Origin: Yuukianura sp. NJ FZ-2021
Taxonomy: Eukaryota
Direction of reading: 5' to 3'
Length of the DNA stretch: 64,000 nucleotides
NCBI GenBank assembly: GCA_046563655.1
Contig: CM102285.1
Span: 12,710,001-12,774,000 of the forward strand
In this document: positions 15,134 through 57,688 of the stretch, piece by piece
Layout of the letters: the number at the start of each line of letters is the position of its first letter
Position numbering within the stretch: position 1 is the stretch's first letter
Notes under the pieces: model-generated
The model's database searches: none
What the model saw: the letters and a program-made list of their open reading frames with translations, nothing else
Told to the model about the DNA's origin: nothing
Position numbers and translations under genes: made by a program

Positions 15134-15448
15134 AAACATACGGTTAATGTTTTCAGCTAACATGAAAATTAGCTGAATTCTGAATTGTTTTGAAGATTTG
15201 AAAATAAAAAGTCCAAGTCAAAAAAAAGTTTTCGAAGAATTCATTTTTTCCAACTTTCTCTTTTATCCAAAAAATTTTATCACACTTTTCTTTGCTATGA
15301 AAACAAAAATTTCAAATTCGGTTCTTCTATTTATAAACGAATTTGAAATCGAGAATATTTTGAATTTGAATTGTTTGTGAATGTATTCCTTTTAGATCGA
15401 AACGATAATAGCATAACAGTACATGAAAACGTTTCCTTCTCCAGAAAA

Positions 15449-27723: not shown

Positions 27724-29267
27724 CTTGAATTTGTGAAATCACCAATTCAGTTCGGGAAAAATGGATTTACTGAAAATAAAAACTGTATTTTTCAAAATTT
27801 CAACTTTCTTGAAACAAAAACTTAAAATTTTTAGAACAATGCACTATTGCATTTCATTTCTGTTCTACCTGTGCTGCAAAAATGACGCAACGCAGGTCTA
27901 GACTTTCTGAGATTACTATTTTTACACCTTCTCAAGAGTGTATAAGTGTCCAAAAAATTAGCAATTCAAATTAGCAATTGAATTTAGCATTGAAATTGAA
28001 GAAGGCTATTGTTATCAAATTCTATTTTTGGTTAGTCCAACATTGTATTGCATGTTTGACCAAGACTTGATAACAATTGGCCCACATTTCCTAATTTCTT
28101 TTCAACTTGCAGTTTGGATTGATGCAATTTTTACACACAATTACTATAAAAGTTAAAGTAAATATTTACCCTTGCTCTTGAAATTAAATTTTCAAGGAGC
28201 TGGACAAGCGCGACGCTTCTTCTAATGCAGTCACTTTCCAAATGACATCAAATCGCTGCTAGAGCGCTGATAGTACAGTCCCTTTTTTAAAAATTGAATT
28301 GCGAAACTATCCATTCACGACTAGCAAAATTTTATGTCCAAGATAAGGACGTTCAACAATTAAATTTTAAGAGTCAGGCGCCTAAAAATCAGCCGAATTT
28401 GCAAATTGGAGTAAAAGGAATTGCAAATTTCCAATGCCCCACTTTATCTCTTGACCATAAAAGTTAGCCTGCAAAACCACAACAGACACTGGTTGATTAA
28501 GTGAGGATGACACGGGAGTCTTATGGACATGGAGAACATCAACTTCCTTGCGTGGGAGTACCGAAATGGCTTGTTCCAGAAGTTCCAATCGCTGCAAAAC
28601 TATTAATCCGCCCCAATGGTTTCCTCTTACCACAAAACTACAATAGAAGTCCAACCTCCACGTGTATTAATTACCACCCTGGGATTTAAAATCTCCAATT
28701 GAAAATGCAAATCCAATGTAACTGCAAAGAATACAAACAAGTTAATCGCAAACACAACGAGAATATAAGTTACTAACTTCAAATTCTAAAAATTCCATGA
28801 CTCAGGCAGCCGAGTCCAACTTTAGGCAACAAATCCCTAACAAAACACTTTTGAAATTGAAATTGACTCAATTCTAAGTATAGAAAGGAAAAAAGTTATG
28901 GATAGCATTTCTAAAAAAATAGAAGAAAAGAGGTACCCTTTCAGAAAAGTTTGGAAGTTTTATTAAGGCAGCCAAAATAGCATCATGCAATAGCGTCTAA
29001 GAGGAAGATCATTGATAAATATTACAATTGACTCATCAGATTGTTGGTTCAACTACTAAACTGTAAAGTTGTTAAGGCGTAAAGCAGACTTTTACTTTTA
29101 TAAGCCGTTTTACAGTTTAACGGCCTTGAAATCTAAAAACTTCAATCCTTCCCCAACAGCCTGTCCAAAGACAATTTATAAAAATTAAAACTTCTGTCGT
29201 TCTCACGCGTAATATAATCTGGCCATGTTTCCATTTCCATTCGCCAATTTCAATTTCGTTTCACTTT

Positions 29268-31091
29268 TCAACTTGTGGCTTCGTGTTTCAAATTGTAAAT
29301 GAAGGCAGACCCGTCTTCTGATCCCGAAGCAAGTTTTGTTCCATCCCTACAACACAAGACACATTTAGCACTGCAATTAAAAATAGTTAAGCTAAAATGT
29401 GTAATTTAGTTACTTTGTAATAGCTAAATCCAAAATTTCGGCTCGGTGCCTTCCGAGAATACTTTCTTGTTTACAGGATCTCGCATCAAAAGAGCGAATA
29501 GCACCGTCCATTCCTGCTGTGTAGACGATTGGTGTAACGTTGTCCCAAATCAGTTTCGTAAGACCAACTTCTTGAGTAATCCGAAGACGTTCGGTCTAAA
29601 ACACGGGATTAATCAGAGGAGAGCATTAGCAAAGCGGATCATAAGAATTTTGCAATTTTAATTTGCAATGTTTTAAATACCATTAGCGTAACGTCCCAGA
29701 TCACCAAATGTCCAGTTACAGAGCCAGCAGCTAAGTAGTCAAACTGAGAACCAGAGTAGAAAGCAACAGTTTCGATGCTATGAGCTTTGTCATCTTCGAT
29801 AGCTTCTGCCGATGGAACTCCTCCAGGAGTGCAATGCCAAACTGTAATTAACTAAATTACAAAGTTACCAATTAGTTCCAAGGAATTCTTAGATTAATAA
29901 ACGACGAACTATGAAAATTACGAGAAGTTGACATACTTTTCCGCTTTGGGTGTTGTAGAGTTTGACCGCACCGTCAGCACTTCCTGTTGCAATTACATTG
30001 AGCCTTTTGTGCCGATCAATTGAAATTACAGCGGACTGCTCTCCTTGTGGCATCGGTTTTACAAATTGAGTCAAAACGTCTCCAGAACGCAGATCGAACA
30101 TCTTCACTCCTCCATCTGCATAGCCAGCCACTAGACGCTTGCCTAGAAAAGACAAAAACACAAAGCTCAGCCAAAACACTAAACAAAAGTTTCAAAAATG
30201 TAAAAATATTATTCGCATACCGTCGGGGAGAAGCGTCCCACATTCGCATTTGGAGTTGCTACCGCCGTAGATTTTGCATTCTCCGCTGGGAATCTTCCAC
30301 ATGTAAATGGAACCATCTTCGGTACCCGCAAAAAGAACGTTACTTTGAGTGTGCCAAAAGCTCCACTAAAAGTTTTCAAATTCATCAATACGAAAAGTAA
30401 AATACGAACTTAGGAAAGTAGACCTTACCGATAAATCGCCAGTCTCGAAAGTGATGACATTTTCGGATGTGCTCGTCCTCCAAACTTTGACCATTCCACT
30501 CAGGTCACAGGTACAGAAAAATGAAGAATCCCAGCTGAAAGATGCACTCACGACTGAATCCTTAAAAACAAAAAATCTTTTAATCAGCGACACACGTAAA
30601 CGTCCACTGGGTCATTAAACTTGCACCAATTCTTACCACATGCCCTTTACATTTGCAAATTGGGAAATGCGTTTTGATCGATGTAGAATCCCAGACGTTC
30701 GCCACGTCGTCTTCTCCACCGGTAATTAATTTGTGCCCTGCAGAGTCGAACGAGAGGCAAAATACAGCTGACCCTGGAGATTTAAAACAAAAATTTTTTA
30801 AACTCTCCTCTTACGTTGGACACAAATTCAATTTTTTTTAATTGTACCCATATGAGCAGTCAGAATATAATCTGGTTTGATGCCAGTGAACCCTTCAAGT
30901 CCAGGACCAGTGGACATGTCATCGTCATCTTCAATTTCATCGTCTCCCAGATCTCCCTGGTCAGTTCCCGTTGTTCTTTCAAAGTCGTCATCATCCTCAT
31001 CATCAACAACTTCAATCATGTCAATTTCCTCGAAAGAGTCATCTTCTTCGTCCACAGTGAGATGATCATTTTCTCTTTTTCCGTCCGTCAT
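29268..31091 (-). CDS. AAMP: AAMP/Sqt1-like WD40 protein
   Basis: Acidic N-terminus followed by WD40 repeats: ITGGEDDVANVWD, DSVVSASFSWDSSFFCTCDLSGMVKVW, GKRLVAGYADGGVKMFDL, KLASGSEDGSAFIY. Confidence 0.85.
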
Positions 31092-31740
31092 TATTTCGGC
31101 TATTTGTTCTCGAAATCGCAGTCAATTTTTCCTGTAAATTAATCACAGGGCACAATAAGTTTTAAAATTATAATCAATGAATTATTATGTAGAACAAGGA
31201 GAAACAATTTTTATTTTTGTTAAGATATTCATTTATAGTAACGTTTTCTGCATAAGAGTAAATGCCTTTTCTGCCATCGAACTATACAGTACCACATGGT
31301 ACCCAGCAACGAGAAGAATTGAAAAAAGTGAACCGGCGGCATGTAGATGCAGATGAAACTCTCATAAATCAGCTGCTGCTGCTGCATTCATTCTTGCAAA
31401 AAATCTAACAATACACAAATGTATCTAGCAAAATAACTATTTCATTGCAGTCATTAGTGTTAGAATCATTATCAATGTCCATCAGTAGTGAAGAACCTTA
31501 AGATTTTGGAGTGAGGAAATAGACAGATTAGGACATGACAAAAGGTCAAGACAAAGGTCACGAGAAATCTTCGATAAGAAACGGACCAGCTCACTTGACG
31601 AAAAGGAGCCCAAAGTCAAATTTCTGAACACGCCAACCAAGATCTGTAGAAGACAAAGTTAAATACTGGTCCAGCGTGTTAAAATTTGGGCAGCATTTTT
31701 GAGAAGTATTCTGAATTCCTAAACATCAAATTCTGCGAAA

Positions 31741-32449
31741 ATGAGCATACTTTGCAGAGCCATTTTTAATGTTGCAAGAACCAGTGCTGCAAGCAACCTA
31801 CAACTGGCTAAATTCTCAACGACATCTTTCCTAGCAGGTAATTGAGATGAACAATTAGAAAATTGATTAACGCTGATCTAATTGATTCCTCTTTTTGCAG
31901 CCAGAAAGTTTACGGACAAGCACGAATGGGTGGAACTGAACGGAAAAGTAGGAACTGTTGGAATTTCTGAATACGCTCAAGGGTCCTTAGGAGATATCGT
32001 CTACGCTCAGCTTCCGGATGTCGGGACGGAGTATTCTCAAATGGGTAAAGCTGCAATTAGAAAAAAGCATTTATCATATGTTGGTCTGGAGCAATAATGA
32101 TTAACCTAACATAACTCTTTATACTAGATGAATGTGGTGCCCTTGAAAGTGTGAAAGCGGCTAGTGAATTGTTTTGTCCAGTTTCCGGTAAAGTGGTAGA
32201 GAAAAATATTGCTGTGGAAGGATCACCTGGACTAATCAACACATCTTGTTACGATCAAGGTATGCATTCGTAATTAATTGACATTTGATTTTTCAAGCAT
32301 GCCGTAATTTGATTTGCTGAATCCTAAACAATGTAATTTTCTTGTCAGGATGGCTGTTCAAATTGGAGCTGAGCAAACCAGAGGAAATGGACGGACTTAT
32401 GGATGAAGCGTCGTACGACGCCTACCTGAAATCCAGCTCCGATCACTGA
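31741..32449 (+). CDS. GCSH: Glycine cleavage system H protein, mitochondrial
   Basis: Presequence exon, [28 protein letters not shown], lipoyl motif [13 protein letters not shown]. Confidence 0.95.
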
Positions 32450-33598
32450 ATCCAAGATTAGACCTTGTTCAAGTGATGAAAAGATTTTGTGCCCTACTAC
32501 ATGTTTAGTTGCTTCTGTCAATTAAATACAGTTCCTTGGTTCTAGATATTCTGTCAATAAAATATTAAAAATGTAGATTGTAGATCAGCTGAGAAAAACG
32601 AAACCGGTCAAGTTTAGAAACAAAATCTAGATTCAATGCAAGCACGTTACCGTTTCGGTCATTTAGAATTAATACTACGCCAATGAAAATTTATATTAGC
32701 TCGGACTGGCTAAGATACTTTGTTGTGAAAGGTTGTCGCGTCACAAAATGACATCCCGATCCTAACTTAGGAAGTAATTAAGTTGCTTCAATCAAGCGTT
32801 GATATCAATAAATTTGATCTCTATAATCGTAATCTAACCGTTGTACTAGTAGTAGATGAAAAAAGACATTTCTCTGACCTTTGCTAATTTTTGCAGCTGA
32901 TGACGTCCGGTCTCCGTGTATACTTCAAAATCAATCTCCAAGCAAGGGTTGTCCTGGTCAAATTCAACTATTCAAGTAGTACTGATTAATCGAAGTAATC
33001 AATTAACTTAAGATATTCTACTAAAAGAAGTGTGAATGAGTTAATTAATTAAAGGTAAACGTGAACGTGAAGTGACAACGACAACCGCAACAGCCAAAAT
33101 TGCGTGTTTTTTTTCATGCTGAGGCAAATCAGCTGCAAGAAAAGCACTGAAAATCTCGATTCAATTTTGGCGGAATTTTTAAATCAAATTTGGGAAGGGT
33201 GAGATTTCGCGCCTAATTTCAAATGCAGCGTCAGTAACTCCTTATCCATATGAAATTTAAATTCAAAAAAAAATATTAATAAAAGTAATTAAAATTATTA
33301 ATAATCCATCAATTATTATTTCAATATCAATATCAATTAAAAATAAATTTAGTTATTTATTATTTTTGATCAAGCTGCAAATGCGAAGAAACATTTTTAT
33401 AAACACCTACTAAGAAAGAGATGCACTCCAGCTAAACCCCAAGAGAAAAGAGCACGCAAGGGCAATAGAATTAACGATTAGATCTTTGATTAGTACATAC
33501 CTGAATTCCCAGAACTAATTTTTATACACATACAATGATTGGCAGTTATAATTATAATGTAATTGTTAATTAACTTTGCTTTGACCTTTTAGCACCAT

Positions 33599-35645
33599 TT
33601 AGAACGTTTCGTAGAGCGGAAGTGTAAGAAACTCTTCAAAGTTATTGTCGACAGCAACTTTGGTAAACTCATGCGCAGCTCTGTCGAAAGGCAGCTTACT
33701 TCCAGTACTTTTAAGTCTAGCGACTTCTTCTTGCACAATTTCCTGCACCATTTGGGCCGTGACCTTCCTTCCGTCCGTCAGCACCCCCAAGGGGGAGTGG
33801 ATCCATTGCCAAAGTTGACTTCGACTGATTTCGGCCGTTGCAGCATCTTCCATCAAGTTGTTAATCGGAACACATCCGGTTCCGTTCAGCCAAGAAGCGA
33901 GATACTGCAAAGCAACTGTACAAAAAAAAATCGCTTGATCAGAACAGGTCAAAAGGTCACAAAAAGTCAAAGATCAATGAGTCCATGGCATTTTAGCTTA
34001 CTTGAAACGTTAGTTCGGAGTCCATTTTCAGTGATCTTCGGTGGTGTTGGTTGGAAGTTTAGCAAGTTCTGCGCTGTGACCTCAAGGTCATCCAGTTGTT
34101 TTGAAATTTGATTCGGATTCTGTTTCAAAACCGCTTCAAATTCTTGTTTTGCCAAATCGACCAATCCGGGATGAGCAACCCAGCCGCCATCGAATCTATT
34201 TTGCAACAAAATCCATACATTTTTAAATTCAAAGTTCAGTTACCCGTCGTCCACAGAACGGTTTTACATAAGTTAACGTTATGTTTTTTTCGTTAGGTTA
34301 GGCAAATTGTAACAAACTACTTAAAATCAGCCACTAAAGTAATTGATTTTGTCAATTACCCATCACGAACATCTCTCCGCTTGTCCTCCCGGACACCTTC
34401 TAGTGCCTTCTCATTTGCAGCAGGGTCATCTTTGATTGGAATCAGCGCACTCATGCCACCAATCGCTGGAGCGTTTCTTTTATGACAAGTTTTGACCAAA
34501 AGTAAAGCATAGGCACGCATGAAAGGACTGTTCATGGTAATCGTATGTCTGTCTGGAAAACAAAGATCTTTTTGATTCCGAAATTTCTTGATACAACTGA
34601 AGATGTAGTCCCATCTTCCAGCGTTGAGTCCAGCCGAATGCTCTTTCAATTCATACAAAATTTCATCCATTTCAAAAGCTGCTGTGATAGTTTCAATCAG
34701 AACTGTGGCTTTGATTGATCCATGTGGAACTCCGAGTTCTTTTTGGGAGAAAGTAAAAACTTGATTCCAAAGACGAGCTTCAAGATGATTTTCCAATTTG
34801 GGCAAGTAAAAGTACGGACCAAGCCCAACTTCCAGAAGTTTTTGAGCGTTGTGGTAAAAGTAGACTCCAAAATCAAACAGACTTCCAGACAATCGTTGTC
34901 CATCGATCGTAAGATGCTTTTCATCAAGATGCCAACCGCGTGGACGGACAAGGAGAGTGGCTACGGTTGGATTGAGTTTGTATTCTTTCGGACCAATTTT
35001 GAAATCAATTTGACGACGAATTGCATCAATCAGATTCAACTGTCCAGCAACTTGATTTCCCCATGTGGGAGCCGTGGAGTCTTCAAAATCGGCCATGTAG
35101 CAATTGGATCCTAAATTTTCAAAAAATATTTCAAATTTTCAAATCTTAATTTGAAGTTTGATGAGATTTTCCAAACCTGAGTTGAGCGCATTGATAACCA
35201 TTTTTCGATCAACTGGTCCAGTGATTTCAACCAATCGGCAGTGCAAAGGCGTTGGAAGCTCTGAAATTTTCCAGTCTCCATTTCGAATGTGAGCTGTTTC
35301 TGGCAAAAACCCGGGTTTTAGTCCACGGTCGAAATCGGCTTGTCGTTGAATCCGTGTCGACAGAAGGTGCTTTCTCTCCGGTTCGAAATTTTGATGCAAC
35401 TTTTTGAGAAATTCCAAACATCCTACTGTGAGTACTTCTTTTTGAATTCGATCATCAACTGGAATGGAGCTGGAAATGGATACACCTTGAGGCCAAGCGG
35501 TACTAGCGTACGAAGCCATCGCAATTCTCCAAATATTTTGAACTGAAAATCCGTCTGGGGCTTTCAAGGTTCCAAAATTGATTCTGTTTATGCTTGCGGT
35601 TTTGACGTGTCCAGAGTATTTGGCAAGTAGGCCACTACTCAACAT
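33599..35645 (-). CDS. aceB: Malate synthase A, bacterial type, 4 coding exons
   Basis: [81 protein letters not shown]; introns 35111-35176, 34196-34359 and 33916-34001 keep the frame. Confidence 0.96.
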
Positions 35646-36660
35646 TCTAAAACAACAAAAAATTAGATCAAAATTTTAAACATAAAACATTTAACATAAT
35701 TTTGAGTAGACACAATTTGTAGTGGAAGAACGGCCAGTGGAGGAACAACTAATAATTTGACAAATGTTTTTCGGTATTCTATGTTGAAAATAATTGCAAA
35801 TGGCGTTCTACTTCTTACCATGTTTGTCAAATTTTTACAAAATTCAGTAAAATATCAAAACAACTGACTAAAATGTGCCACTGATCACTTGATTTTATAA
35901 CTTTTTCAAAAGTGACTCAAGACAACGTGATCTGTCTTAATCTTGGAAAAATTCTCTTAGAAGTAGAACTCCAATAAGTCTGAATGTCAGTTTTTGCATA
36001 ATGAAAAAAAAACACACTTGGATACTGAAATTGCCTTCGGCATTTCACTAAAAGATGCGTTAACTCTGATACAAAGATTTTATCCAACCAGACGCTACGC
36101 AACCAGATTATCCACATGGCTTGTAGTACTCAAGGTCAGAGTTCAAAAACAATTACTTATGCTGAATTCGAAAAAAAAACTTCATATTTTGAAATACAAA
36201 AGGTCGAAGCGACTAAAAATGCAAAAATCAGCTCACGATTTTAATTGAATGCTTGTCGAAAATTGGAAGTGCGAAACATTTGAAAATTTGCAAGGCTTAC
36301 CTTGATGATGCGATGGTCGCCTGTTGTCGCCAACGTTTTTTCCAAAAACTATTGTATTTTGAAAACTGAAGATTTTATAACTATGTTTTGTGTTTAATGC
36401 TCTCGAAACTTTGTATCTTGCTGGGAGTGACACTGTTTCTGAATTTCGTTTGACTAAAAAGCTAAAAGTCTTGTTTTGTGTACCTTGTTTTCCTAGACAC
36501 GGGAAAATTTCATTTGGAAAATTTCTTGACAAAGCTTTTGAAAATATGAAAATATTTTGTTTGGTCCAAATTGTTTTTGAGTGTAAAGGTAATCTGTGTT
36601 TGCCTGAAGGCCAACCTTCCCAACTGACCTTTGGAAGATCTCGGTAAGTATTTTTCCTCA

Positions 36661-38715
36661 AGTTCAAAGTCCAAAGTGTCTCGTCTTGTGACTTTCCTTT
36701 TGACAAGTAACTGTTTGTGGTGGGTACGCTTACGGTAAACTAATATTCAGATATTTCTGGATCTGCTTACTACGCTCCCTCACAAATCGTAATTCATTAA
36801 TACCTTCGTCACGGGAACCTCATGACCACTGGACTATCGTCATCAAGTGACCTTTACACTGTCCAGTCCAAATGTTGTTCTTTGCATAACTGGAATTTGC
36901 ACAACTTCGTAATTTGAACAGGAGTCGCCCGACATCTCATCATTGCGCGTCTCTTCCACTAAACTTAGGCTTATGATTACATTTTTTACTATCTTTGTTG
37001 ATATTTTTGTAAATCCAATGTGCAAAGTACAAACTCTGGACGCAACGTGCTTACGTCAACAGCCTGGAACTGGACTTTGGCCACCCATTTTTTATGAAAT
37101 CTCAATTCAAATTGTCGCAAAATTTACAAAAACTTGTTTTTGTTTTGACTTCAAAACTGTTTTTATTTTTAAAATTATGACGAAAGCATACAATTCCCAA
37201 TAGTTTCTTCAAACCTTTTGTTTTTTTTAACTTCATGCTTTTTCAACTTTTAAAACAAAAATGTAAACAAAAGATTTGGAAATAGTCGCAGATTTCATAA
37301 TTCGCGTCGCAATTTACAGTTTTTAAAAAATACTCAGAATTCAGTTTTTAATTTCGAAAAATTGACTTGTTGAAATTTTTACTTGTAGGCTGATTTGTCG
37401 GTGTTTTAGATTGTGAACAATAGTTGAAGCTTAAGAGCCTAAAACAAGGTTAATGTTTGAAACGTGAGGTCAAAAATGCATTGTATTATTTTTAGTAGCT
37501 TTAAAATCAATCGCCGCTTTCACGATAACTGGTAAAAACTGGTTCTAACAATCATTGTCATTTCATTTTAGAATCGTCTGGAATTTTAAATACCTTTTTG
37601 CTATCATCAACATGTCTTAAAATTTCTAAAATTTCGTCATTTTCAATTCAGAACCAGTTCCGTTTGGGTTTTTTTAAAAGATAGTCTTGCCTTTTTGGAC
37701 TTTGGACCAATTTTGAAATTAGATTTCGACTTTGTCTAAGTCCGTTTCATAGATTTTAGTAATTACATCACGCAAAAAGTGACGCGCGAGAAGGCGTAGT
37801 TTTTGGAAAAATTTTAACAAATCCTGGCCAAGCTTTCACTGACGTTGGAGTCACACGCCTCAAAAATTTCCCAATAGCAGTTGGACTTGTGACTTTTCAA
37901 ATCAAAAGCAACGAAGACCCCTCTGAACTTTTTGGATCCTGTTTTAAAAGTTCCCTCGATCGAGTGACCTCGAGAAAATTCTACCCAGGAGTAATTTTGA
38001 CCCCTGCTGGTTAAAAGGACCAGCTCAAACTCAAACAGCATCAAACCACTTGTGGATTCTGAACTGTCAAGAGTTAACACTCAAACGCCCCAAGCGTTTT
38101 CTCCTCCTCCATTGTTTTGGTTTACAACCCAAACGAAAAAGAGACTATCACTTCACAACTTCCTCACTTCTATTCAACATCAACTGCTCCAGCTTTTACA
38201 ACCTTCACTTCAAAAAGGCTACACAACTTTGTCCATTTTTGAACGCAGCTTTTTAGCTCACAAAAACTCAAAATTTTGAAAAAATCAACATGATCAACAC
38301 AATTAAACTTCAAAGTTCTGGAGGACTGCAGATCCTGAAACGCTGCTTCAACTCCAGATCACAACAACGTATTGCTCAAATTGAAACCGTAAGTTTTTCA
38401 AAATTTCAAAAATTATAACAAATTTTTCAAAAAAAAAGTAGAATTTTGAAATTCTAAATAAGTTATATATGCCAAGAAAAGAAGATCTCCCAAAACTGCG
38501 GAGAAATTTTCTTTACATGGTTAATTTTCTTCTTTTTTTCAACTGGCGTGTAACTTCATACAAATTTTTATTTCCAAAAATCTTACAACTTAATAAATTA
38601 TTATAAACAGAAATTATTATAATATAATAGTACATTAGTTATAGTATTTTGGAGTGGTAGGCATCCAGGTCAAAGTTCAAAAGATGCGGAAGTGTGCTGC
38701 TCTTTGTACTTTGGA
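36661..38715. promoter_or_regulatory. Cluster of HNF4-type DR1 motifs in the aceB/aceA divergent region and aceA intron 1
   Basis: AGTTCAAAGTCCA 36661-36673 (+), TGGCCAAAGTCCA 37071-37083 (-), GGTCCAAAGTCCA 37696-37708 (-), AGGTCAAAGTTCA 38667-38679 (+), plus CAAAGTACA variants near 37023 and 38705. Confidence 0.5.
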
Positions 38716-40369
38716 TGTATAAAATCAGCGTTAACGAGCCTCGTGACATCGAACAAGGCTTATCTCCGTCTGTGTCCAGATTTCAAACTGGAAATTTCTG
38801 GACATTGGACAGGATGCTCTAGAATTACAAGCCATAACCAGTTTCGCTCTAGTTAGATCTAGGAAAAGTACTAAGAATATGACACACATCGCTGATTGGA
38901 TTGAATGGATGTTATTTTTAGGACTGGAAAGAAAATCAGCGATGGGCTGGAATCGAACGGCGTTACACCGCCGAAGACGTTGAGAGACTCAAGGGCTCCC
39001 TGGACATCGAATACACCTTGGCCAAGAAGGGCTCCGAAAAGTTTTGGCGCATGTTGCATGAGCTTCCTTATGTCAAGTCCCTGGGGGCCCTTACTGGAAA
39101 CCAGGCTGTCCAGCAGGTCAAGGCTGGTCTCAAGGCCATCTATGTCTCGGGGTGGCAAGTTGCTGCTGATGCCAACATGGCTGGAACGATGTACCCTGAC
39201 CAGTCACTCTACCCGGTCAACTCTGTTCCGAAAGTGGTCAAGTCTATCAACAACGCACTGGCCAGAGCTGACCAAATTCATTACGAAGAAGGTATTTGCA
39301 GTTGATCTCTCAAAAAAAGTGATCTAAAATTTTGAAAACTTAGAAAACCCCAAGTTTCATTTCTGTTTTCTGATTGGTCAGGAGACAACTGTGTCGAAGA
39401 TTGGTTTGCTCCGTTGATCGCTGATGCTGAAGCTGGTTTTGGTGGAGTGCTGAATGCTTTTGAGCTGGTCAAGGCCATGATTGAGGCTGGAGCTGCCGGA
39501 ATTCACTTTGAAGATCAGTTGGCTTCTGCTAAGAAATGTGGTCACATGGGCGGTAAAGTATTGGTTCCAACAAGAGAAGCCATTGACAAGCTCGTGTCAG
39601 CTCGACTTGCAGCGGATGTCATGGGAGTGCCAACGGTCCTTATTGCTCGAACAGACGCTGAAGCTGCAGCGATGGTCACGAGCAATGTGGATCCAAATGA
39701 TCGTCAATTCTGCACTGGAGAAACTACGCCTGAAGGATTCTTCCGAACTCGTCCTGGAATCGATCAAGCTATCTCCAGAGCCCTAAGCTACGCTCCATAC
39801 GCTGATTTACTTTGGTAAGAACAAACCTAAGCCGAAATTTAAAAAAAAATCAGAAATTCAAAAATCCAAAACTTTCATCATTTTCATTTTCCAGGTGCGA
39901 AACAGCCACACCCAACTTGGCCTATGCCAAAGCCTTTGCAAATGCAATTCATACTGACTTTCCCGGAAAAATGCTTGCTTACAACTGCTCACCGAGCTTC
40001 AACTGGAGAAAACACTTAAACGACAAGGAAATCCGGACATTCCAGGAGCAAATTGGAGCCATGGGATACAAATTCCAGTTCATCACACTCGCAGGGTTCC
40101 ATGCCCTTAACTACTCCATGTTTGAATTGGCCCTAAACTATGCCAGCAGAGGCATGGCTTCATATGTTGACCTCCAGGAAAAAGAATTTGCAGCAGCCAA
40201 CTACGGATTTACGGCAGTCAAGCATCAACGTGAAGTTGGAACTGGGTACTTTGATTCTGTAGTGAATACAATTCAACAAGGACAGTCCAGCACAACGGCC
40301 CTTAAGGGCTCCACGGAAGAAGCACAATTTGAACATGAAGGGCTTAAACAAAAAGCAGCGGCTCACTAA
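38290..40369 (+). CDS. aceA: Isocitrate lyase, short bacterial type, 4 coding exons
   Basis: [41 protein letters not shown], active site [41 protein letters not shown]; introns 38389-38921, 39292-39381, 39815-39894. Confidence 0.97.
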
Positions 40370-41051
40370 ACCACGGAATTATCGGGGAGAAAACGGAACA
40401 CTAAAAACCAAAATATACCGGATAAAGTTGTAAAGTACTTAACATAATCAATATTATTTTTAACTTAAGAATTACTTTTAGTTTTTTATACTCAATCGAT
40501 GTAAAGATAAAGTAATTGTAAACTTCGATTTTAAATTTCTTTAAGTACTCTTTCTTGTAAAATCATGTTTAAAATTTTAAAGTCTTTTAAACAAATTCAG
40601 CAAGAAACTTTCAGCAGATTCTCACAATTTGCTTAATTAGACTAAGACTAATGATGAACTTAAGTTAAGATATTAAGAAGTATGTTAATATAACTAATGT
40701 GTTAACAATTAAGTTAATATAACGAATATGTTAAGAATTAAAGTTAAGATACTTAATTTTACAATAAAGTTAATTGACCAAGATTCTGATTTTTTTTTCG
40801 CAAAAATTTGTGTCGTTGAAATTTTAGAGTAGAAAAGCTTCGTCATTTCCGCTGTTTTGAGCTCAATTGGACAAATGAAAAGCTCAAAGGAAAATTTTCG
40901 GAAATTTTGAAAATCGTGACGTAATAATAATGAGTTTACGAAATTAATTGGGACAAGGTCAAACACCTTTTTAATACTGTTTCCATTGCATTGCTGGAAA
41001 CTTTAAGCTTCGAAATTATCGGTTTTGTCAGAAGCAAAACGCGAAAGCAAC

Positions 41052-41817
41052 ATGTCGCAAAATTTTGGAAAATTCGGCATTTTCGGACTTTTGATATTTT
41101 TGAACATTTCTCCAGGAGTTGAGGTCACGTTGATCACAGGTATTCAAAATTTTGATATTCACACCAAAAATTTATGGTTAATTTTGATTTTGAAATTTAG
41201 TGGTTGCATCCACATGCGTCCAAGGAGCAACTTGGGTTCCGGCGGCGCTCGTAGCGCTGCAGAACAAGTGCTACAAATGTCTCTGCTTCGCTAACAACAT
41301 TTCAGTCTGTACTATCCAATTTCTAGGAAACCTCTGCGCCACTGTAAACCAAGTTGTAACTGACGTACCAACTACGGCACGACCTGCAGGTACGACCGTG
41401 GTTACACGAATTCCAATTCCAGTCTCAACAATAATTAATCTACCCACTGCTGTAACTAATCCTCCTACTGCTGTAACTATTCCACCCACTGCTGTAACTA
41501 ATCCTCCTACTGCTGTAACTATTCCACCCACTGCTGTAACTATTCCACCCACTGCTGTAACTAACCCGCCTACTGTTCTAACTAATCCGCCTACTGTTGC
41601 TCCACCAGTTACGATTCCAATTGGCATTGTGACGCCGATTCCAATTCCAGCCACGTTCATTCCTGGAGTTCCTACTGCAGTTACAGCCGTCCCAGGACCA
41701 ACAACTGCTGCACCAGCGACATTGTCGACTGCTCGAACTGTTACCCCACCACCACCCATCACTCCTGTGCCTATTGGTGGAGCCACCATTGTAACACCGA
41801 TACCTATTGGACGCTAA
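41052..41817 (+). CDS. Secreted protein with a small 6-Cys domain and a Pro/Thr mucin-like tail
   Basis: Signal-like exon 41052-41139, intron 41140-41200, then C-x17-CYKCLC-x7-CT-x7-C followed by P/T/V-rich repeats. Confidence 0.75.
41443..41598 (+). repeat. Coding 21-bp minisatellite (PTAVT[N/I]P), about 7 units
   Basis: CCCACTGCTGTAACTAATCCT / CCTACTGCTGTAACTATTCCA units. Confidence 0.9.
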
Positions 41818-42484
41818 ATTTGATTTTAGAGGCTTAAAAGTAAAGTTAATTGTTGCTAATTTAACTATTTAAGCGTAACTATTAATAAAACAAGTTCTGA
41901 GAATTCAGTTTCACACTTTGAAAAGAATTGTCATTTGGATTTTGCTTGTGAGAGTGATATTAAAGTTTTACCGTGGTCGAGTACTTAAAAAGTCTGATGT
42001 TTTTGTCACTAATTTTGGGAGTAATGCTAATTACTTTAAGAAGAGTTGCAATTAGTACTGGTGGGGAAAGCGTCAGGATATCCCTAGTGAGTGAAGTTGG
42101 TGAAACAATTGAAATTTTAGGATCCCAATGCAAAGGTGGCATGTACTTCCAGGAATCGGTTCTGGTTCACTGTGTTTGCGTCACAGGAATGTAAGTTTAC
42201 GTGGCATGTCAAGGCTGAGGTCAATTTTAATCACAGTTTGCAAGCAATTGGTTTCTTTAGATGGGCGATTTACAAATCCTGGTGCTCCGAACCTCTGCTT
42301 GTGATTGGTGGAATCGATCATTGCTTCCAGTTGGTGCAAAATGTCAGAGAAGCTAAATAACGTTGACCAATTCAGTCATAACTACAATTTCAAATTTTTG
42401 TTGACTTTCACCTTGGTCACTTAGGTCAGTCTGGTGACACTTTTGTCTTCACCAGTTTCAGCCAGGGATCCATTTCTGACCAGA

Positions 42485-44369
42485 ATGAGTTCCAAAATGG
42501 AAGTATTGAAGGACGTAGCAGTTGAAACTGACAGCAAAGTTTACTGGAATCCAAAACGTTCTGGTTTCCTTACATTTGGAGGTCATGACCTTAAAATTTT
42601 TCAAATCTAGCTCAAATTATGACTTCGGTTTTGAGTGACTTTGTAGAAACGAGTTGGGAATTTTTTGGAGCTGGAGGTCAAAGTCGCTGTCTTCTGGCAA
42701 ATTCAAACATGACCTCCTCATACTGCCATTTTTCAAATATTGGGCCAGACAAAATTGTACATATCAGACAAAGCTGTGATCCCAAGGTCAATGTCACCAT
42801 TCTACCAGACACTTGCTTTCCATTCATAACAGTCCAACACCCGAATACCGAAACAGGTAACGTTTCCGACTTCCGTATCCAAAATTTCAGAATTTTAAAA
42901 TTGAAAATTTCAAGATTTAAAAAATTTTTGGGACTCATAGAAATGAGAAACGTATGCCACGGGAGGGAAAACGAGGCGAACATATCTGTACGTGCGATTG
43001 GTTTAAGAAAACGCGGAGTCCTTGCGGAAATGTCAGAGAATGACCTTGACCTTGACGACATTGCGCCACCGCTAGCAAAAAGTAACACGTTTATACTAAA
43101 CCAACTCAGCCAGCACATTGAAAACGAAATACAGGAGTTGATTGACGGTAAAGAAGTGGAATTGAAGACAACTCAAATTCAAAAATGGCCGATTCTAAAA
43201 ATTTTAGAGATGAGCCTGGATATTTTGAAGGTTCCTTACAATCAAATCAAACTGATCTGTCTCATTCAATTTTTTAAACATTAAAAACTTTTTCGGAACT
43301 TTTCAGCGTACATGCACCGTAGTTTTGCCGAAGGTCTTTGACCTTATACTCTTGACCTTCGTTGACATTCAGGTCAACTCTATTCATATAAAGGAGCCAC
43401 CAGTTGATCCCGCTGCTTCTTCTAGAATTGAGAAAGCACTTACTACGTGTTTCAGTAGTGCAATAAGTCACAACTTTGTTCCAGATTTGGAATCTCTTGT
43501 GCCAAATAAAACTTTGAAAGATTATGAAGAAGATTGCACTCAGGTAGGTTTCAGGTTTAGTTGTTTGCAGTATTTTTTTCTATGTGTTGTTATTTGAATT
43601 TTGTAAAAAATATTAATTTTGGAGGAGATTGTGAACCTTTAAATTTTGAATTTTTTGAATTTTAGAAAAACATTGTTTCGGACATCATTGAAAAATATGG
43701 AGAACGATTTCAAGTATCTCTGCCCATAGGCCATAGAGGAGCAGGATTTGAACCCATCGTAGAAACTGTTTGGAAAGTTCTTGTCAATGCGCATTCGTAC
43801 TGCTACAAATTTTTTTCAGATTACTACAATGATCATCACACTTACGTCGTTGACCTCTTGCCGTTCTTTTCAAATGAAATTCAAGAAATATGGTAAAATG
43901 TCGCTGTAAATTTCTACATTTGCGCAGAAACGTTAAAACCGTGAACTAAACTGTGATTTTTATACGCAGGATGCCGCCATCCTATGACGGAGACTACATT
44001 GAACCACAACTGGGTCAATACCTCTATGGAGGATTGCTAGGTGACCACCGAGAGTTGTTAAGGAAAGTGGATTTGTGTGTAGCCGCAAGTAGGATCGGGT
44101 CACCTTACGCGTGGTACATGAACAGACCGCCGAGAGACCGCTCAGATCGCAGGTAAAGCTCTTTCAGCGAATTTTATTGAAATACGAAGTTTCGAAATTT
44201 GAATAAATTATGGAATTTGATTATTATTGATTTGATTTTTGTATTTTTAAACTTAAGGGAATGGAGAAAGCGAAGTCCTGATGCCGAACGAACATTTCTA
44301 TCCAACCGCCAATGCATTCAATCCACAACAGATTTTCAAAATGTGTTCCATTTTCCAAAGTGTGGGTAA
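42485..44369 (+). CDS. Uncharacterised multi-exon protein
   Basis: Open exon blocks with GT-AG boundaries (MSSKMEVLKDVAVETDSKVYWNPKR..., 43325-43543, 43666-43892, 43970-44152, last exon 44258-44369); no family recognised. Confidence 0.55.
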
Positions 44370-44725
44370 TTAATAGGAATTAAACAATGAAAAGTTCACA
44401 GAAGATTTGTCTTTGCACGACTTTTTAAACTAAAAGTTTGTATTAAATTGATTAATTAATTTTTGGTAAAATTGAAAACGGCGACGACGAATGAACTTTA
44501 GTAACGCTATTTTTCATTGGCATAAGAAAAAAAAACTTTTCTTAGAATTTGGGGCATCATGAGACACACCGCGAACTTTAAATTTTGACATTTAAAAAAC
44601 CGACACCCCTCTCCTGTCCCCACCCCAAAATTCCTCAGCTGTGAGAACCATATGTTTTGATTGTGTGGATTTTAAGTTAACTTTTTTACAGTTTAATTGT
44701 TGATTACCGGAGCAATTAGTTAATC

Positions 44726-46135
44726 ATGAAGACTGTGCAAGAATTGGAGCAGCGTGTTCGAGAGCTGGAGTCAGAGTTATTAAGTTTGAAGGGCGGAGTA
44801 GCACGGGAACGTATAGGTCAAATGTCATCGGAAGTCGTAGACTCCAATCCGTACAGGTAAATTGTGGCGTAAATTAAATGATTTGGTTCGTTGCGATCCT
44901 CAGGGGATGGATGAATGTGATTGAAAAATGATTTAATTTGTAAATTACAGTCGATTGATGGCGCTGAAACGAATGGGAATAGTTAACAATTACGAGGACA
45001 TTCGGAAATACACGGTAGCAATCGTCGGAGTCGGTGGTGTAGGATCTGTCACTGCGGAAATGCTAACGCGCTGTGGCATTGGAAAGGTATATTAAGAAAA
45101 CATTAATATGTTCCAGACGTAATGGCAGTTTATTTAATCGTCTGTTTTATTTTCAGCTGATTCTGTTCGACTACGATAAAGTGGAGCTGGCCAACATGAA
45201 TCGTCTGTTTTTCCAACCTCATCAAGCAGGGATGTCCAAAGTTGAAGCAGCAGCAGCAACCTTAGCTTTTATCAATCCAGATGTGACGTTCGAGACGCAC
45301 AACTACAACATCACAACGGTCGACAATTACGACAACTTTGTGAATCGACTTGAACATGGTTCGCTGACGGGATCTCGAGTGGATCTTGTTTTGTCATGCG
45401 TGGACAATTTTGAAGCAAGAATGACAATCAACACAGCATGTAACGACTTGGGCCAAATCTGGTTCGAAAGCGGTGTCTCTGAAAACGCAGTTTCCGGGCA
45501 TATTCAATTTATCAAACCCGGTGAAACAGCTTGTTTCGCCTGTGCTCCACCGCTTGTCGTAGCTACAAACATTGATGAAAAAACGTTGAAGAAAGAAGGC
45601 GTATGTGCAGCAAGTCTTCCTACTACAATGGGAATTGTTGCTGGCTTTCTTGTCCAGAATTGTCTCAAGTAAGTTATTCAAATTCAACCATCATCTTCAA
45701 TTTTCATTTCATTCGAATTTTCTATTTAGATTTTTACTTGGATTTGGAACAACAACGCATTACTTGGGATACAATGCTCTGGAAGACTATTTTCCAACAA
45801 TGAGCCTAAAACCCAATTCAAGTTGTGACGATCATCGTTGTATCAAGAAGCAAAAGGAACATCAGGAGTATTTAATTGCAAATCCTATTCAGGAAGAGAC
45901 AAAGAAGGAAGTTCCCGTTATAGATCCAACTAACGAATGGGGAATTGAAATTTTGGATGAAACTGATCCTGCACTGCTCACTCAAGACGATCAGGATCTG
46001 ACTTTATCCAAAGGAATTAAGCTAGCTTATACCATTCCCGACAAAGCATTGAATCTAAAAGAAGACGACAGCCAAGTTGAAGTCGATGATTCCGTATCTT
46101 TAGATGACTTGATGGGCCAAATGAAAAACCTCTGA
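44726..46135 (+). CDS. UBA5: UFM1-activating enzyme UBA5
   Basis: [88 protein letters not shown]. Confidence 0.97.

Positions 46136-55772: not shown

Positions 55773-57688
<1,916 letters not shown>

What the first reader, a model, noticed from the sequence alone, without database searches (positions are those of the whole stretch)
33599..40369. Complete bacterial-type glyoxylate shunt (aceB and aceA) as a head-to-head, intron-containing gene pair in an animal genome
Seen: intact malate synthase (-) and isocitrate lyase (+) genes diverge from a ~2.6 kb spacer. Each has three GT-AG introns that keep the frame, catalytic motifs are intact ([22 protein letters not shown]), and the neighbours are ordinary animal genes (GCSH, AAMP, UBA5). 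Established: most animals lack ICL; nematodes use a fused ICL-MS; fungal and plant ICLs carry a ~100-aa internal insert that is absent here. Inference: both proteins look bacterial (from memory, segments such as [32 protein letters not shown] and FLTLPLY resemble betaproteobacterial AceB). This suggests co-transfer and domestication of a two-gene pathway allowing net fat/acetate-to-sugar conversion. I cannot tell whether it has already been reported for this lineage.
Basis: partly seen in the sequence, partly recalled or inferred. Interest (0 to 1): 0.92.

Follow-up and report, generated by a model that had tools for sequence, protein, structure and literature searches.

The report
Bacterial glyoxylate shunt genes in animal
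An animal genome carries working-looking, intron-bearing copies of the two bacterial enzymes that let a cell make sugar from fat or acetate; the same acquired pair is already annotated in springtails (and one of the two in fungus gnats), yet I found no paper that discusses it.

Summary
A malate synthase A gene (minus strand, 33599-35645, 4 exons, 576 aa) and a short bacterial-type isocitrate lyase gene (plus strand, 38290-40369, 4 exons, 458 aa) diverge from a 2,644-bp spacer. Each has three GT..AG introns. Catalytic motifs are intact, and base composition matches the neighbouring animal genes.

Both proteins sit in well-supported clades. The named members are springtails (Orchesella, Folsomia) and sciarid flies (Bradysia); the unnamed members all carry N-terminal extensions. 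Both clades are sister to Betaproteobacteria-type sequences and far from the nematode ICL-MS fusion. A metagenome contig from a closer relative shares two of the three malate synthase introns in place and phase. Non-synonymous change between the two is low (pN 0.16, pS 0.83).

This is an old, domesticated bacterial acquisition, probably working in mitochondria, since it has presequence-like extensions and no PTS1. Co-transfer of both genes is plausible but not shown.

It is a new member of a known kind. Comparable acquisitions are published for nematodes and cnidarians. The springtail genes are annotated in databases and appear in one supplementary HGT table. In 2009 a springtail ICL transcript induced by dehydration was dismissed as contamination.

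The host lineage and expression in this species remain open.

The parts
33599..35645 (-). Malate synthase A gene, whole span from start codon to stop codon; 4 exons, 576 aa counted from the first ATG
   Evidence: Gene model. Pfam MS_N, MS_TIM-barrel and MS_C. Matches to solved structures 3cux_A (E 7e-112) and 3cuz_A (E 9e-82).
35177..35645 (-). MS exon 1. It encodes a 48-aa basic N-terminal extension (5 K+R, 1 D+E) and the MS_N domain. A second in-frame ATG at 35519 (codon 43) lies where the bacterial proteins start.
   Evidence: The extension aligns from residue 1 with the product of relative contig L124.
35111..35176 (-). MS intron 1: 66 nt, phase 1, GC 0.20. Absent from relatives L124 and L131.
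34360..35110 (-). MS exon 2: TIM-barrel core with the motifs [14 protein letters not shown] and GRWDYIFS
34196..34359 (-). MS intron 2: 164 nt, phase 2, between DG and FDGGW. Same place and phase in L124.
34002..34195 (-). MS exon 3: end of the TIM barrel and the linker
33916..34001 (-). MS intron 3: 86 nt, phase 1, inside the Ile codon of NVS-I-ALQY. Same place and phase in L124.
33599..33915 (-). MS exon 4: MS_C domain with [11 protein letters not shown]. The protein ends ...LPLYETF, with no PTS1-like tripeptide.
35646..38289 (.). Divergent spacer between the two start codons: 2,644 bp, GC 0.345. It has no Pfam-matching ORF, no tandem array and no inverted repeat.
38290..40369 (+). Isocitrate lyase gene, whole span; 4 exons, 458 aa, short bacterial type
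   Evidence: Gene model. Pfam ICL. Solved-structure matches.
38290..38388 (+). ICL exon 1 (33 aa). It encodes a 20-aa basic extension with no acidic residue, then the first conserved residues (RIAQIET).
38389..38921 (+). ICL intron 1: 533 nt, phase 0, GC 0.31
38922..39291 (+). ICL exon 2, with the motifs [10 protein letters not shown] and MYPDQSLYP
39292..39381 (+). ICL intron 2: 90 nt, phase 1
39382..39814 (+). ICL exon 3, with the motifs [14 protein letters not shown], the KKCGH catalytic loop and ARTDA
39815..39894 (+). ICL intron 3: 80 nt, phase 2, inside the Trp codon of LLW-CET
39895..40369 (+). ICL exon 4, with the motif NCSPSFNW. It ends in a clade-specific tail, ...KQKAAAH, with no PTS1.

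Best explanation
The locus holds two nuclear animal genes that descend from a proteobacterial (Betaproteobacteria-like) isocitrate lyase (aceA) and malate synthase A (aceB).

Shown:
- Both genes are integrated among ordinary animal genes.
- Both have gained spliceosomal introns and taken on the host's base composition.
- MS is under purifying selection.
- Both belong to a eukaryote-borne clade that also contains springtail genes and, for MS, sciarid-fly genes.

Inferred:
- The proteins are imported into mitochondria through their acquired N-terminal extensions.
- There, ICL splits isocitrate into succinate and glyoxylate, and MS joins glyoxylate to acetyl-CoA to give malate. This bypasses the two CO2-releasing steps of the TCA cycle.
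- Acetyl-CoA from fat, acetate or ethanol can then give net C4 acids, and through PEPCK give sugar (trehalose, glycogen, chitin). This would be useful in starvation, cold or drying.
- Both genes came in one transfer from a donor with a linked aceA-aceB cluster, and one gene was later inverted.
For: Anatomy and integrity:
- Gene models with six GT..AG introns and open frames.
- Pfam matches for 7 of 8 exons.
- Collinear alignments with conserved catalytic motifs to solved MS A (3cux, 3cuz) and ICL (3i4e, 7cmx, 6lrp, 1igw) structures.

Integration:
- Animal genes on both sides.
- GC3 of 0.40 and 0.48 against 0.42 for pooled native exons; intron GC of 0.20-0.36.
- Bacterial relatives have median GC3 of 0.84 (80 MS segments) and 0.83 (36 ICL segments).
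- DNA contigs of 4 runs from 2 studies cover the whole 29-46 kb stretch.

Origin:
- The best 80 loci among the GTDB species genomes bear almost only betaproteobacterial or unclassified proteobacterial titles (a few say Gammaproteobacteria or Competibacteraceae, one Virgibacillus), at 64-72% identity.
- Careful maximum-likelihood trees are reported; FastTree and quick trees agree.
- Named clade members are Orchesella cincta and O. dallaii MS, Folsomia candida MS, Bradysia coprophila and B. odoriphaga MS, and O. dallaii ICL.

Constraint and age:
- The L124 product is 77.5% identical and shares 2 of the 3 window MS introns in place and phase.
- pN is 0.158 against pS 0.832 over 563 codons.

Targeting:
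- All 9 MS and all 12 ICL eukaryote-clade rows compared carry extensions of 4-85 aa that are rich in K/R/S/T with 0-5 acidic residues.
- None ends in a PTS1-like tripeptide; the bacterial rows have no extension.

Linkage in donors:
- 36 of the 80 nearest bacterial loci have ICL within 10 kb of MS.

Expression in a related lineage:
- In the springtail Megaphorura arctica, a 2-kb contig of 14 EST clones was 71% identical to a bacterial ICL.
- Its clones are flagged as contamination in the Top-20 up-regulated lists of all four dehydration treatments (PMC2726227, passages).
- The published forward primer encodes ERRYTA, as in the window's ICL. The primers are 45-50% GC.
Against: - No RNA run was available for this species, so splicing, the start codon used and expression are not shown here.
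- The mitochondrial location rests only on the composition of the extensions. No targeting predictor was available.
- None of the 36 bacterial loci with linked genes has the divergent orientation (all same strand; ICL upstream in 35 of 36). A single transfer therefore needs a later inversion, and two separate insertions cannot be excluded.
- The ICL clade is sister to the sampled Proteobacteria, not nested within them, and that sister branch has weak support (91/58). The donor of ICL is less well fixed than the donor of MS.
- No cnidarian MS or ICL and no animal MS-like/UGL sequence was in my trees under a name, so a link to the cnidarian genes was not tested.
- That the M. arctica ICL belongs to this clade is inferred from identity level and primers. 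I did not see its sequence, and the paper's supplements could not be read.
- M. arctica PCR showed no size difference between genomic DNA and cDNA across a span that holds a 90-nt intron in the window.
Confidence: 0.85

Rival explanations
1. Bacterial contamination or an assembly chimera: the two genes belong to a betaproteobacterium living with the animal and were joined to animal DNA by the assembler.
For: The proteins are 64-74% identical to betaproteobacterial enzymes. The same argument was used for the M. arctica ICL clones in 2009. The laid contigs are short, and none listed spans from a flanking animal gene into MS or ICL.
Against: - There are six GT..AG introns that interrupt otherwise bacterial-like frames.
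- GC3 is 0.40 and 0.48 against a median of 0.83-0.84 in bacterial relatives.
- The introns and spacer are AT-rich like the rest of the window.
- No bacterium is closer than 72% in exon 2 among the genomes scanned, one for each of 185,579 prokaryote species.
- Eukaryote-borne homologues are closer than any bacterium.
- DNA cover is even across the locus in 2 studies.
Confidence: 0.02
2. Vertical inheritance: the genes are ancestral metazoan or eukaryotic glyoxylate-cycle genes, retained here and lost elsewhere. PMC10120013 proposes this for cnidarian MS and ICL.
For: PMC10120013 (passages) argues that MS and ICL were present early in Metazoa and lost by most lineages. The clade spans distant hosts (springtails, flies, the window's host). 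Its branching, with Bradysia plus springtails on one side and the window's group on the other, could follow a species tree.
Against: - The MS clade is nested among Betaproteobacteria with 100/99 support.
- ICL is the short bacterial type without the eukaryotic insert.
- Intron positions differ between clade members, apart from the closest pair. This fits intron gain after a late arrival.
- Vertical descent would need loss in nearly all other insects and animals. Kondrashov 2006 found ICL only in nematodes and cnidarians among the sequenced animals.
Confidence: 0.05
3. The genes are real and acquired, but they do not run a glyoxylate shunt. ICL would act mainly as a methylisocitrate lyase in propionate breakdown. 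MS would act mainly to remove glyoxylate from purine or hydroxyproline breakdown.
For: From my own knowledge, not from any call: some AceA-type ICLs, such as M. tuberculosis ICL1, also cleave methylisocitrate. MS genes serve allantoin breakdown in yeast (DAL7, mentioned in PMC10120013). Glyoxylate detoxification is a plausible benefit for detritus feeders.
Against: - The two genes are kept side by side in the window.
- Both are present in Orchesella dallaii, and their records give the same longest-contig length of 7.48 Mb.
- The two trees are roughly congruent.
- The sequences are close to bacterial AceA and AceB, which work as a pair.
- These side roles do not exclude the shunt.
Confidence: 0.07
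4. Two independent transfers landed near each other by chance or by selection for clustering, rather than one co-transfer.
For: - The orientation is divergent, unlike any of the 36 linked bacterial loci.
- The nearest bacterial rows differ between the trees. Chitiniphilus branches first in the proteobacterial sister group of ICL; a broad Burkholderiales/Rhodocyclales set is sister for MS.
- Kondrashov 2006 saw the same discordance for Nematostella.
Against: - 36 of the 80 nearest bacterial genomes have the genes within 10 kb, some only about 130 nt apart, e.g. L004.
- Both clades have a similar membership and shape.
- Both genes are equally ameliorated in composition.
Confidence: 0.3

Closest known systems
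Springtail (Orchesella cincta, O. dallaii, Folsomia candida) and sciarid fly (Bradysia coprophila, B. odoriphaga) malate synthase genes, and the O. dallaii isocitrate lyase, as annotated in public records
   Same: They fall in the same well-supported clades as the window's proteins (MS 100/100, ICL 99/92). They have the same kind of basic N-terminal extension, the same lack of a PTS1 and, for ICL, the same ...AAA.H tail. The Orchesella cincta MS is listed among that genome's 253 HGT genes in supplementary Table S7, with a Burkholderia best hit.
   Different: - Identity is only 62-68% for MS and 72% for ICL.
- The window lacks the 8-10-aa MS insert and the 6-aa ICL insert seen in the Orchesella/Folsomia group.
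- The window falls in the other MS subclade, with unnamed sequences (98/90).
- Their gene order and introns could not be read here.
- No paper found by my searches discusses a glyoxylate shunt in these animals.
Nematostella vectensis ICL and MS genes (Kondrashov et al. 2006, PMC1630690; NvMS shown active in PMC10120013)
   Same: These are also animal nuclear genes of bacterial type with introns. The paper describes the two genes as lying in tandem on opposite strands in 5'-5' orientation, as in this window.
   Different: The relationship to the window's clade was not tested in a tree. The paper places the cnidarian genes with different sets of bacteria.
Nematode bifunctional ICL-MS (C. elegans icl-1 type; Strongyloides record P0556)
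   Same: It is a bacterial-derived glyoxylate cycle in an animal. The abstract of PMC2109822 (seen only in the search listing) reports that the Ascaris enzymes sediment with mitochondria, which matches the location inferred here.
   Different: It is one fused polypeptide of 967 aa, whereas the window has two genes on opposite strands. The Strongyloides ICL and MS parts are long outgroup branches, far from the window's clades. It is an independent acquisition.
Betaproteobacterial aceA-aceB clusters (e.g. loci L004, L063, L002)
   Same: They are the closest prokaryotic sequences: MS exon 2 at 64-72%, whole ICL up to 75%. The domain architecture and catalytic motifs are the same. The two genes are linked in 36 of 80 loci.
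   Different: They have the same-strand order aceA then aceB, no introns, no N-terminal extensions and a median GC3 of 0.83-0.84.
Animal 'malate synthase-like' genes, now ureidoglycolate lyase (UGL; PMC10120013)
   Same: They share the same Pfam family and fold.
   Different: According to the paper, UGL has lost conservation of the acetyl-CoA site, carries Arg276Ile and Trp365Met changes and has a 2-aa insertion. The window keeps GRWDYIFS and DGGWVAHPG as in bacterial MS A and groups with bacterial MS A.

Membership tests
Malate synthase A (AceB type) | Three-part architecture: MS_N, MS_TIM-barrel, MS_C | tested here: met
   Pfam matches: PF20656 (E 3e-14), PF01274 (1e-91 and 6e-9), PF20659 (2e-34) on exons 1-4.
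Malate synthase A (AceB type) | Catalytic and metal-binding motifs. In E. coli MSA these are R166, E250, D278 and D447; this numbering is recalled, not taken from a call. | tested here: met
   [22 protein letters not shown] and [11 protein letters not shown] align identically or nearly so with 3cux_A.
Malate synthase A (AceB type) | It is not the UGL (MS-like) branch: Arg276 and Trp365 are kept and it groups with true MS. | tested here: met
   The R of GRWDY and the W of DGGWVAHPG are kept. The clade is nested among bacterial MS A. The UGL criteria come from passages of PMC10120013. No named UGL sequence was in my tree.
Malate synthase A (AceB type) | Acetyl-CoA + glyoxylate -> malate activity | not testable with these tools
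   Needs an enzyme assay.
Isocitrate lyase, short bacterial type (AceA) | ICL family match over the whole length | tested here: met
   PF00463 matches exons 2-4 (E 6e-16, 1e-47, 1e-33). The exons align collinearly with 3i4e_A residues 18-139, 144-288 and 289-433.
Isocitrate lyase, short bacterial type (AceA) | KKCGH catalytic loop and the acidic metal-binding motifs | tested here: met
   [23 protein letters not shown] and ARTDA are conserved. [10 protein letters not shown] and NCSPSFNW are also conserved.
Isocitrate lyase, short bacterial type (AceA) | Absence of the roughly 100-aa insert of fungal and plant ICL | tested here: met
   There is no gap against bacterial chains. Fungal chains show a gap of about 125 residues between the parts matching exon 3 and exon 4.
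Bacterial ace operon (aceBAK / aceA-aceB cluster) | Co-directional, co-transcribed aceA and aceB | tested here: not met
   In the window the genes diverge from a 2,644-bp spacer. All 36 linked bacterial loci are same-strand.
Bacterial ace operon (aceBAK / aceA-aceB cluster) | AceK kinase/phosphatase controlling isocitrate dehydrogenase | not tested
   No AceK family appeared in the Pfam scans of ORFs, but those scans did not cover every ORF of the window.
Nematode bifunctional ICL-MS | A single fused polypeptide, with ICL N-terminal and MS C-terminal | tested here: not met
   The window has two genes on opposite strands. The Strongyloides parts are distant outgroups.
Horizontally acquired gene domesticated in an animal nucleus | Physical linkage to native genes, spliceosomal introns, host-like composition, and a position in the tree next to or inside the donor group | tested here: met
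   Transcript evidence for this species is missing (one search listed no RNA holder).

The most novel reading that the evidence does not exclude
One ancient capture of a betaproteobacterial aceA-aceB cluster gave rise to a mitochondrial glyoxylate shunt. That shunt is now shared by several unrelated soil microarthropod lineages: springtails, sciarid fungus gnats and the window's host. It spread either by very old descent with massive loss or by arthropod-to-arthropod transfer, which has been proposed for terpene synthases with a similar Sciaridae/Collembola/Acariformes distribution (PMC11665903 abstract). The shunt is switched on during drying and cold to turn stored fat into trehalose. On this reading, the 'bacterial contamination' among the top up-regulated clones of the Arctic springtail in 2009 was the animal's own gene.
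Probability: 0.35. Interest if true: 0.8.

Novelty: new member of a known kind. Interest (0 to 1): 0.6.

Why it matters
Textbooks say animals cannot make net sugar from fat because they lack the glyoxylate shunt. Nematodes and cnidarians are the published exceptions, and both acquired it from bacteria. This locus shows a further, independent acquisition. It is intact, intron-bearing and selected, and it sits in a clade that includes springtails and fungus gnats.

It gives a concrete, testable route for lipid-to-trehalose conversion in small soil animals that survive starvation, cold and drying. It also suggests re-reading older data sets in which such transcripts were discarded as bacterial contamination. 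Finally, it is a clean example of two functionally coupled foreign genes kept side by side in an animal genome.

Tried and rejected
**Runs and reads**
- RNA evidence: the look-up of sequencing runs listed 5 holders from 2 studies and no RNA holder. Expression in this species could not be examined.
- Laid contigs are short. Joints with sides of 20-23 letters near 38283-38419 were set aside as repeat or low-complexity artefacts. No listed piece bridges from a flanking animal gene into MS or ICL.

**Host lineage**
- No whole genome is held for the window.
- A 325-aa thioredoxin-reductase exon gave at best 48-50% identity. The top named hit was a shrimp and most of the rest were vertebrates.
- An Atlas look-up of the UBA5-like exon returned only generic ThiF clusters.
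- The lineage stays open. A mite or a springtail outside Entomobryomorpha is a guess, not a result.

**Earlier findings of this scan**
- Nothing was on record for this genome, and the sequence look-alikes were all bacterial or phage loci.

**Metagenome scan**
- I scanned for a clade-specific peptide (CYMADFED).
- Only 2 of those 80 (L124, L131) were eukaryote-like. The other 78 were bacterial or too distant (39-62% identity).
- Neither contig reaches an ICL gene, so synteny in relatives could not be tested.
- My first script to model L124 failed because I set wrong intron ranges. It worked after I read the sequence.

**Spacer**
- No tandem array and no inverted repeat; one weak 27-nt direct pair.
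- Its 168-aa ORF has no Pfam match.

**Literature**
- The Folsomia candida genome paper's 3 held supplements contain neither 'isocitrate lyase' nor 'malate synthase'.
- One supplement file of the O. cincta paper could not be searched.
- The M. arctica supplements are old .doc files and unreadable here.
- PMC2667189 (Brachionus) and PMC8460440 (Enchytraeus) mention glyoxylate only in passing.
- The bdelloid rotifer ICL in PMC12220480 has an alphaproteobacterial (Tepidicaulis) best hit, so it is a different acquisition.

**Not run**
- Structure prediction and complex prediction. Identity of 60-75% to solved structures made them unnecessary.

Full report
**1. What is there**

Stop-to-stop ORFs and direct reading of both strands show four collinear coding blocks for malate synthase (MS) on the minus strand and four for isocitrate lyase (ICL) on the plus strand.

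Joining them at GT..AG sites gives two open frames:
- MS: exons 35645-35177, 35110-34360, 34195-34002 and 33915-33599. Introns are 66, 164 and 86 nt in phases 1, 2 and 1. The product is 576 aa.
- ICL: exons 38290-38388, 38922-39291, 39382-39814 and 39895-40369. Introns are 533, 90 and 80 nt. The product is 458 aa.

The start codons face away from each other across 2,644 bp.

Pfam matched 7 of 8 exon translations (MS_N, MS_TIM-barrel, MS_C, ICL); the 33-aa first ICL exon had no match.

Against solved structures:
- MS exon 2 matches 3cux_A (E 7e-112) and E. coli MS A 3cuz_A (9e-82). MS exon 4 matches 3cux_A (1e-25).
- ICL exons 2, 3 and 4 match 3i4e_A residues 18-139, 144-288 and 289-433 without a gap.

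The motifs [22 protein letters not shown] and [11 protein letters not shown] (MS) and [38 protein letters not shown] and NCSPSFNW (ICL) are intact. My assignment of these motifs to catalytic and metal-binding residues is recalled from the structural literature, not taken from a call.

Fungal ICL chains leave a gap of about 125 residues between the parts that match exons 3 and 4. The eukaryotic insert is therefore absent.

**2. The surroundings are animal DNA and the genes look at home**

Pfam on neighbouring ORFs found FAM91, BTB/KCTD, Glyco_transf_49, an intermediate-filament-like protein, an amino-acid permease, a WD40 gene (29.9-30.8 kb, minus strand), glycine-cleavage H protein (31.9-32.3 kb), ThiF/UBA5-like (45.2-45.7 kb), CD36, trypsin, MutS_III, thioredoxin reductase and an NTP-transferase.

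Composition:
- GC3 is 0.40 (MS) and 0.48 (ICL). Eleven native exon pieces pool to 0.42, with a range of 0.36-0.49.
- The six introns have GC of 0.20-0.36 and the spacer 0.345.
- RSCU of the pair correlates with the native exons at r = 0.80 (MS 0.82, ICL 0.57).
- The coding segments of the nearest bacterial relatives have median GC3 of 0.84 (80 MS segments, range 0.29-0.96) and 0.83 (36 ICL segments).

Five public runs from two studies hold the stretch, and none is on record as RNA. When I laid four of them, 29 or 30 of 30 bins across 29-46 kb had depth in each run. The contigs are short, so they show presence in a second study but do not bridge the locus edges.

**3. Relatives**

MS exon 2:
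- The best hit is 80% identical (P0001, unnamed).
- Next is a cluster at 78% that contains Bradysia coprophila XP_037048615 and B. odoriphaga KAG4074938.
- Then come Orchesella cincta (75%) and O. dallaii (74%).
- Another cluster holds Folsomia candida OXA43644.
- Named bacterial hits, mostly Burkholderiales and other Betaproteobacteria, reach 70-74%.

ICL exon 4:
- The best hits, at 73-87%, are unnamed proteins, many with N-terminal extensions.
- One cluster holds O. dallaii CAL8123177. Its record gives the same longest-contig length (7,479,325 bp) as that species' MS record.
- Named bacteria (Achromobacter, Bordetella, Frateuria, Thiomonas and others) reach 70-76%.

Over the full spliced proteins:
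- MS is 69.7% identical to P0001, 67.9% to Bradysia and 63-65% to the best bacteria.
- ICL is 71-78% identical to clade members and 72-74% to bacteria.

A scan of one genome for each of 185,579 prokaryote species returned 80 best loci at 64-72%. Their titles are almost all betaproteobacterial or unclassified proteobacterial; a few say Gammaproteobacteria or Competibacteraceae and one says Virgibacillus.

**4. Trees**

A FastTree of 127 MS rows included 76 full-length representatives from an exhaustive search (4,376 proteins at E <= 0.001).
- It put the window in a 14-row clade (support 100) with the named arthropod sequences.
- That clade was sister to 38 betaproteobacterial rows, with the joint clade also at 100.
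- The nematode fusion (P0425, Strongyloides; named) fell in the other half of the tree.

The careful IQ-TREE run for MS had 47 rows; I dropped 28 near-duplicate or very long rows beforehand.
- The eukaryote-borne clade of 11 rows has support 100/100.
- Its sister is 24 Betaproteobacteria (100/93), and the two together have 100/99.
- Three more betaproteobacterial MAG rows lie outside that pair.
- The Strongyloides MS part served as the outgroup.
- Inside the clade the window pairs with metagenome contig L124 (100/100), then with two unnamed rows (98/90).
- Bradysia plus P0001 join the springtails (90/88).

The careful run for ICL had 55 rows, with 11 dropped beforehand.
- A 13-row clade (99/92) holds the window, the O. 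dallaii ICL and unnamed proteins.
- Its sister is 40 beta/gamma-proteobacterial rows (91/58, weak), in which Chitiniphilus eburneus branches first.
- Strongyloides ICL is a long outgroup branch.

Quick and FastTree versions agree.

I had no named cnidarian, fungal, plant or UGL sequence in these trees. This is the main gap.

**5. Signs of long residence and selection**

- Two of the 80 are eukaryote-like: L124 (2,430 bp, GC 0.43) and L131 (1,229 bp, GC 0.45).
- The other 78 are bacterial or distant.

L124 encodes a 565-aa MS that is 77.5% identical to the window's. It has three introns:
- One after PFMR (phase 2), which is absent from the window.
- Two at DG|FDGGW (phase 2) and NVS-I-ALQY (phase 1), identical in place and phase to the window's introns 2 and 3.

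The window's intron 1 is absent from both L124 and L131. L131 also lacks the window's intron 2 and has two other introns. Introns were therefore gained piecemeal after arrival and are shared only between close relatives.

Between the window and L124, pN is 0.158 and pS is 0.832 (saturated) over 563 codons. The first 45 codons evolve faster (pN 0.40) but still align from residue 1.

**6. Where the enzymes probably work**

All 9 eukaryote-clade MS rows and all 12 ICL rows compared carry N-terminal extensions of 4-85 aa beyond the bacterial start.
- The extensions are rich in K, R, S and T, with 0-5 acidic residues.
- The bacterial rows have no extension.
- No protein ends in a PTS1-like tripeptide.
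- The ICLs share a short ...AAA.H tail.

This fits mitochondrial presequences. It is an inference from composition only.

A Met is kept at or near the old bacterial start in the MS rows, at codon 43 in the window. A second, shorter product is therefore conceivable.

**7. One transfer or two**

In 36 of the 80 nearest bacterial loci an ICL gene lies within 10 kb of MS.
- It is on the same strand in all 36.
- It is upstream of MS in 35 of the 36.
- It is sometimes only about 130 nt away.

A linked donor cluster is thus common, but the divergent layout seen here is not. One capture followed by an inversion and two separate captures both remain possible. The similar membership and shape of the two clades favour a shared history. 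I put one capture at roughly two to one.

**8. What is already known**

- Kondrashov et al. 2006 (PMC1630690; I read the abstract and Results sections 5 and 7). Among sequenced animals they found ICL only in nematodes (fused ICL-MS, bacterial origin) and cnidarians. They noted that the Nematostella ICL and MS lie on opposite strands in 5'-5' orientation. They dismissed mosquito ICL as contamination.
- PMC10120013 (passages only). The widespread animal 'MS-like' gene is ureidoglycolate lyase, while Nematostella MS is a true MS.
- The Orchesella cincta genome paper (PMC4987106; passages and one row of Table S7). It lists Ocin01_09539 malate synthase among 253 HGT genes without comment. One of its supplement files could not be searched.
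- The Folsomia genome paper. Its held supplements name neither enzyme.
- Clark et al. 2009 on Megaphorura arctica (PMC2726227; passages only, supplements unreadable).
  - They found a 2-kb contig of 14 EST clones that was 71% identical to a bacterial ICL.
  - Clones of it are flagged in the Top-20 up-regulated lists of all four dehydration treatments.
  - They called it bacterial because an 800-bp PCR product had the same size from genomic DNA and from cDNA.
  - That identity level is what this clade shows to Alcaligenaceae ICL. The forward primer encodes ERRYTA, as in the window's ICL, and the primers are 45-50% GC.
  - I therefore think it was the springtail's own gene. This is inference, because I did not see the contig.
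- Eight full-text searches found no paper that describes a glyoxylate shunt in springtails, sciarid flies or mites.
- A bdelloid rotifer ICL with an alphaproteobacterial best hit (PMC12220480) is a separate case.

**9. Verdict**

Its reading as a bacterial-derived, domesticated ICL/MS pair in an animal genome is supported.

It is a further independent animal acquisition, distinct from the nematode one. Its relation to the cnidarian one is untested. It is shared with springtails and, at least for MS, with Bradysia.

I class it as a new member of a known kind. The genes are already in public annotations, but their biology appears undescribed.

Still open: the host lineage, expression and splicing in this species, the organelle, and whether there was one transfer or two.

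Noticed in passing
window 13557-18928 (+): Three tandem paralogues of a Glyco_transf_49 (dystroglycan-type glycosyltransferase) gene. The ORFs at 13557-14730, 15347-16597 and 17665-18928 have very similar translations. Pfam was run only on the middle one (E 9e-70).
   Followed up: partly
window 41194-41817 (+): An ORF rich in Pro, Thr, Ala and Val, built on a 21-nt tandem repeat (7.9 copies at 41432-41596; unit PPTAVTN/I). It lies just downstream of ICL and has no Pfam match.
   Followed up: partly
window 29000-46000 (runs X1-X4): The laid DNA contigs fall into identity classes. For X1, 164 pieces are at 99% or more, 112 at 95-99% and 64 at 90-95%, with hundreds of variant sites. This indicates high polymorphism or divergent haplotypes in the sequenced material.
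   Followed up: no
proteins P0002/P0361/P0362 (Bradysia) in the MS tree: A fly family (Sciaridae) carries an MS of this clade, placed next to the springtails (90/88). The Sciaridae/Collembola part of this distribution recalls the Sciaridae/Collembola/Acariformes pattern reported for canonical terpene synthases, which was explained there by arthropod-to-arthropod transfer (PMC11665903, abstract). Whether Bradysia also has the ICL is unknown.
   Followed up: partly
window 35519 (-), codon 43 of MS; clade alignment: A Met is kept at or near the ancestral bacterial start in the eukaryote-clade MS proteins, downstream of the added N-terminal extension. This would allow a second, extension-less product, and so possibly two cellular locations.
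   Followed up: no
PMC2726227 (Megaphorura arctica), not in the window: ICL clones called 'bacterial contamination' are flagged in the Top-20 up-regulated lists of all four dehydration treatments, alongside trehalose-6-phosphate synthase. They were probably the springtail's own acquired ICL.
   Followed up: partly
window 56376-57350 (-): A 325-aa thioredoxin-reductase exon is at most 48-50% identical to any protein found in the search. The host therefore has no close annotated relative for this gene, or the gene is a divergent paralogue.
   Followed up: no
loci L001-L080: In the Betaproteobacteria-type genomes nearest to the window's MS, ICL lies upstream of MS on the same strand in 35 of the 36 loci where both genes are within 10 kb. 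L064, a MAG labelled Virgibacillus, has the reverse order with a 38-nt gap and sits on a long branch.
   Followed up: partly
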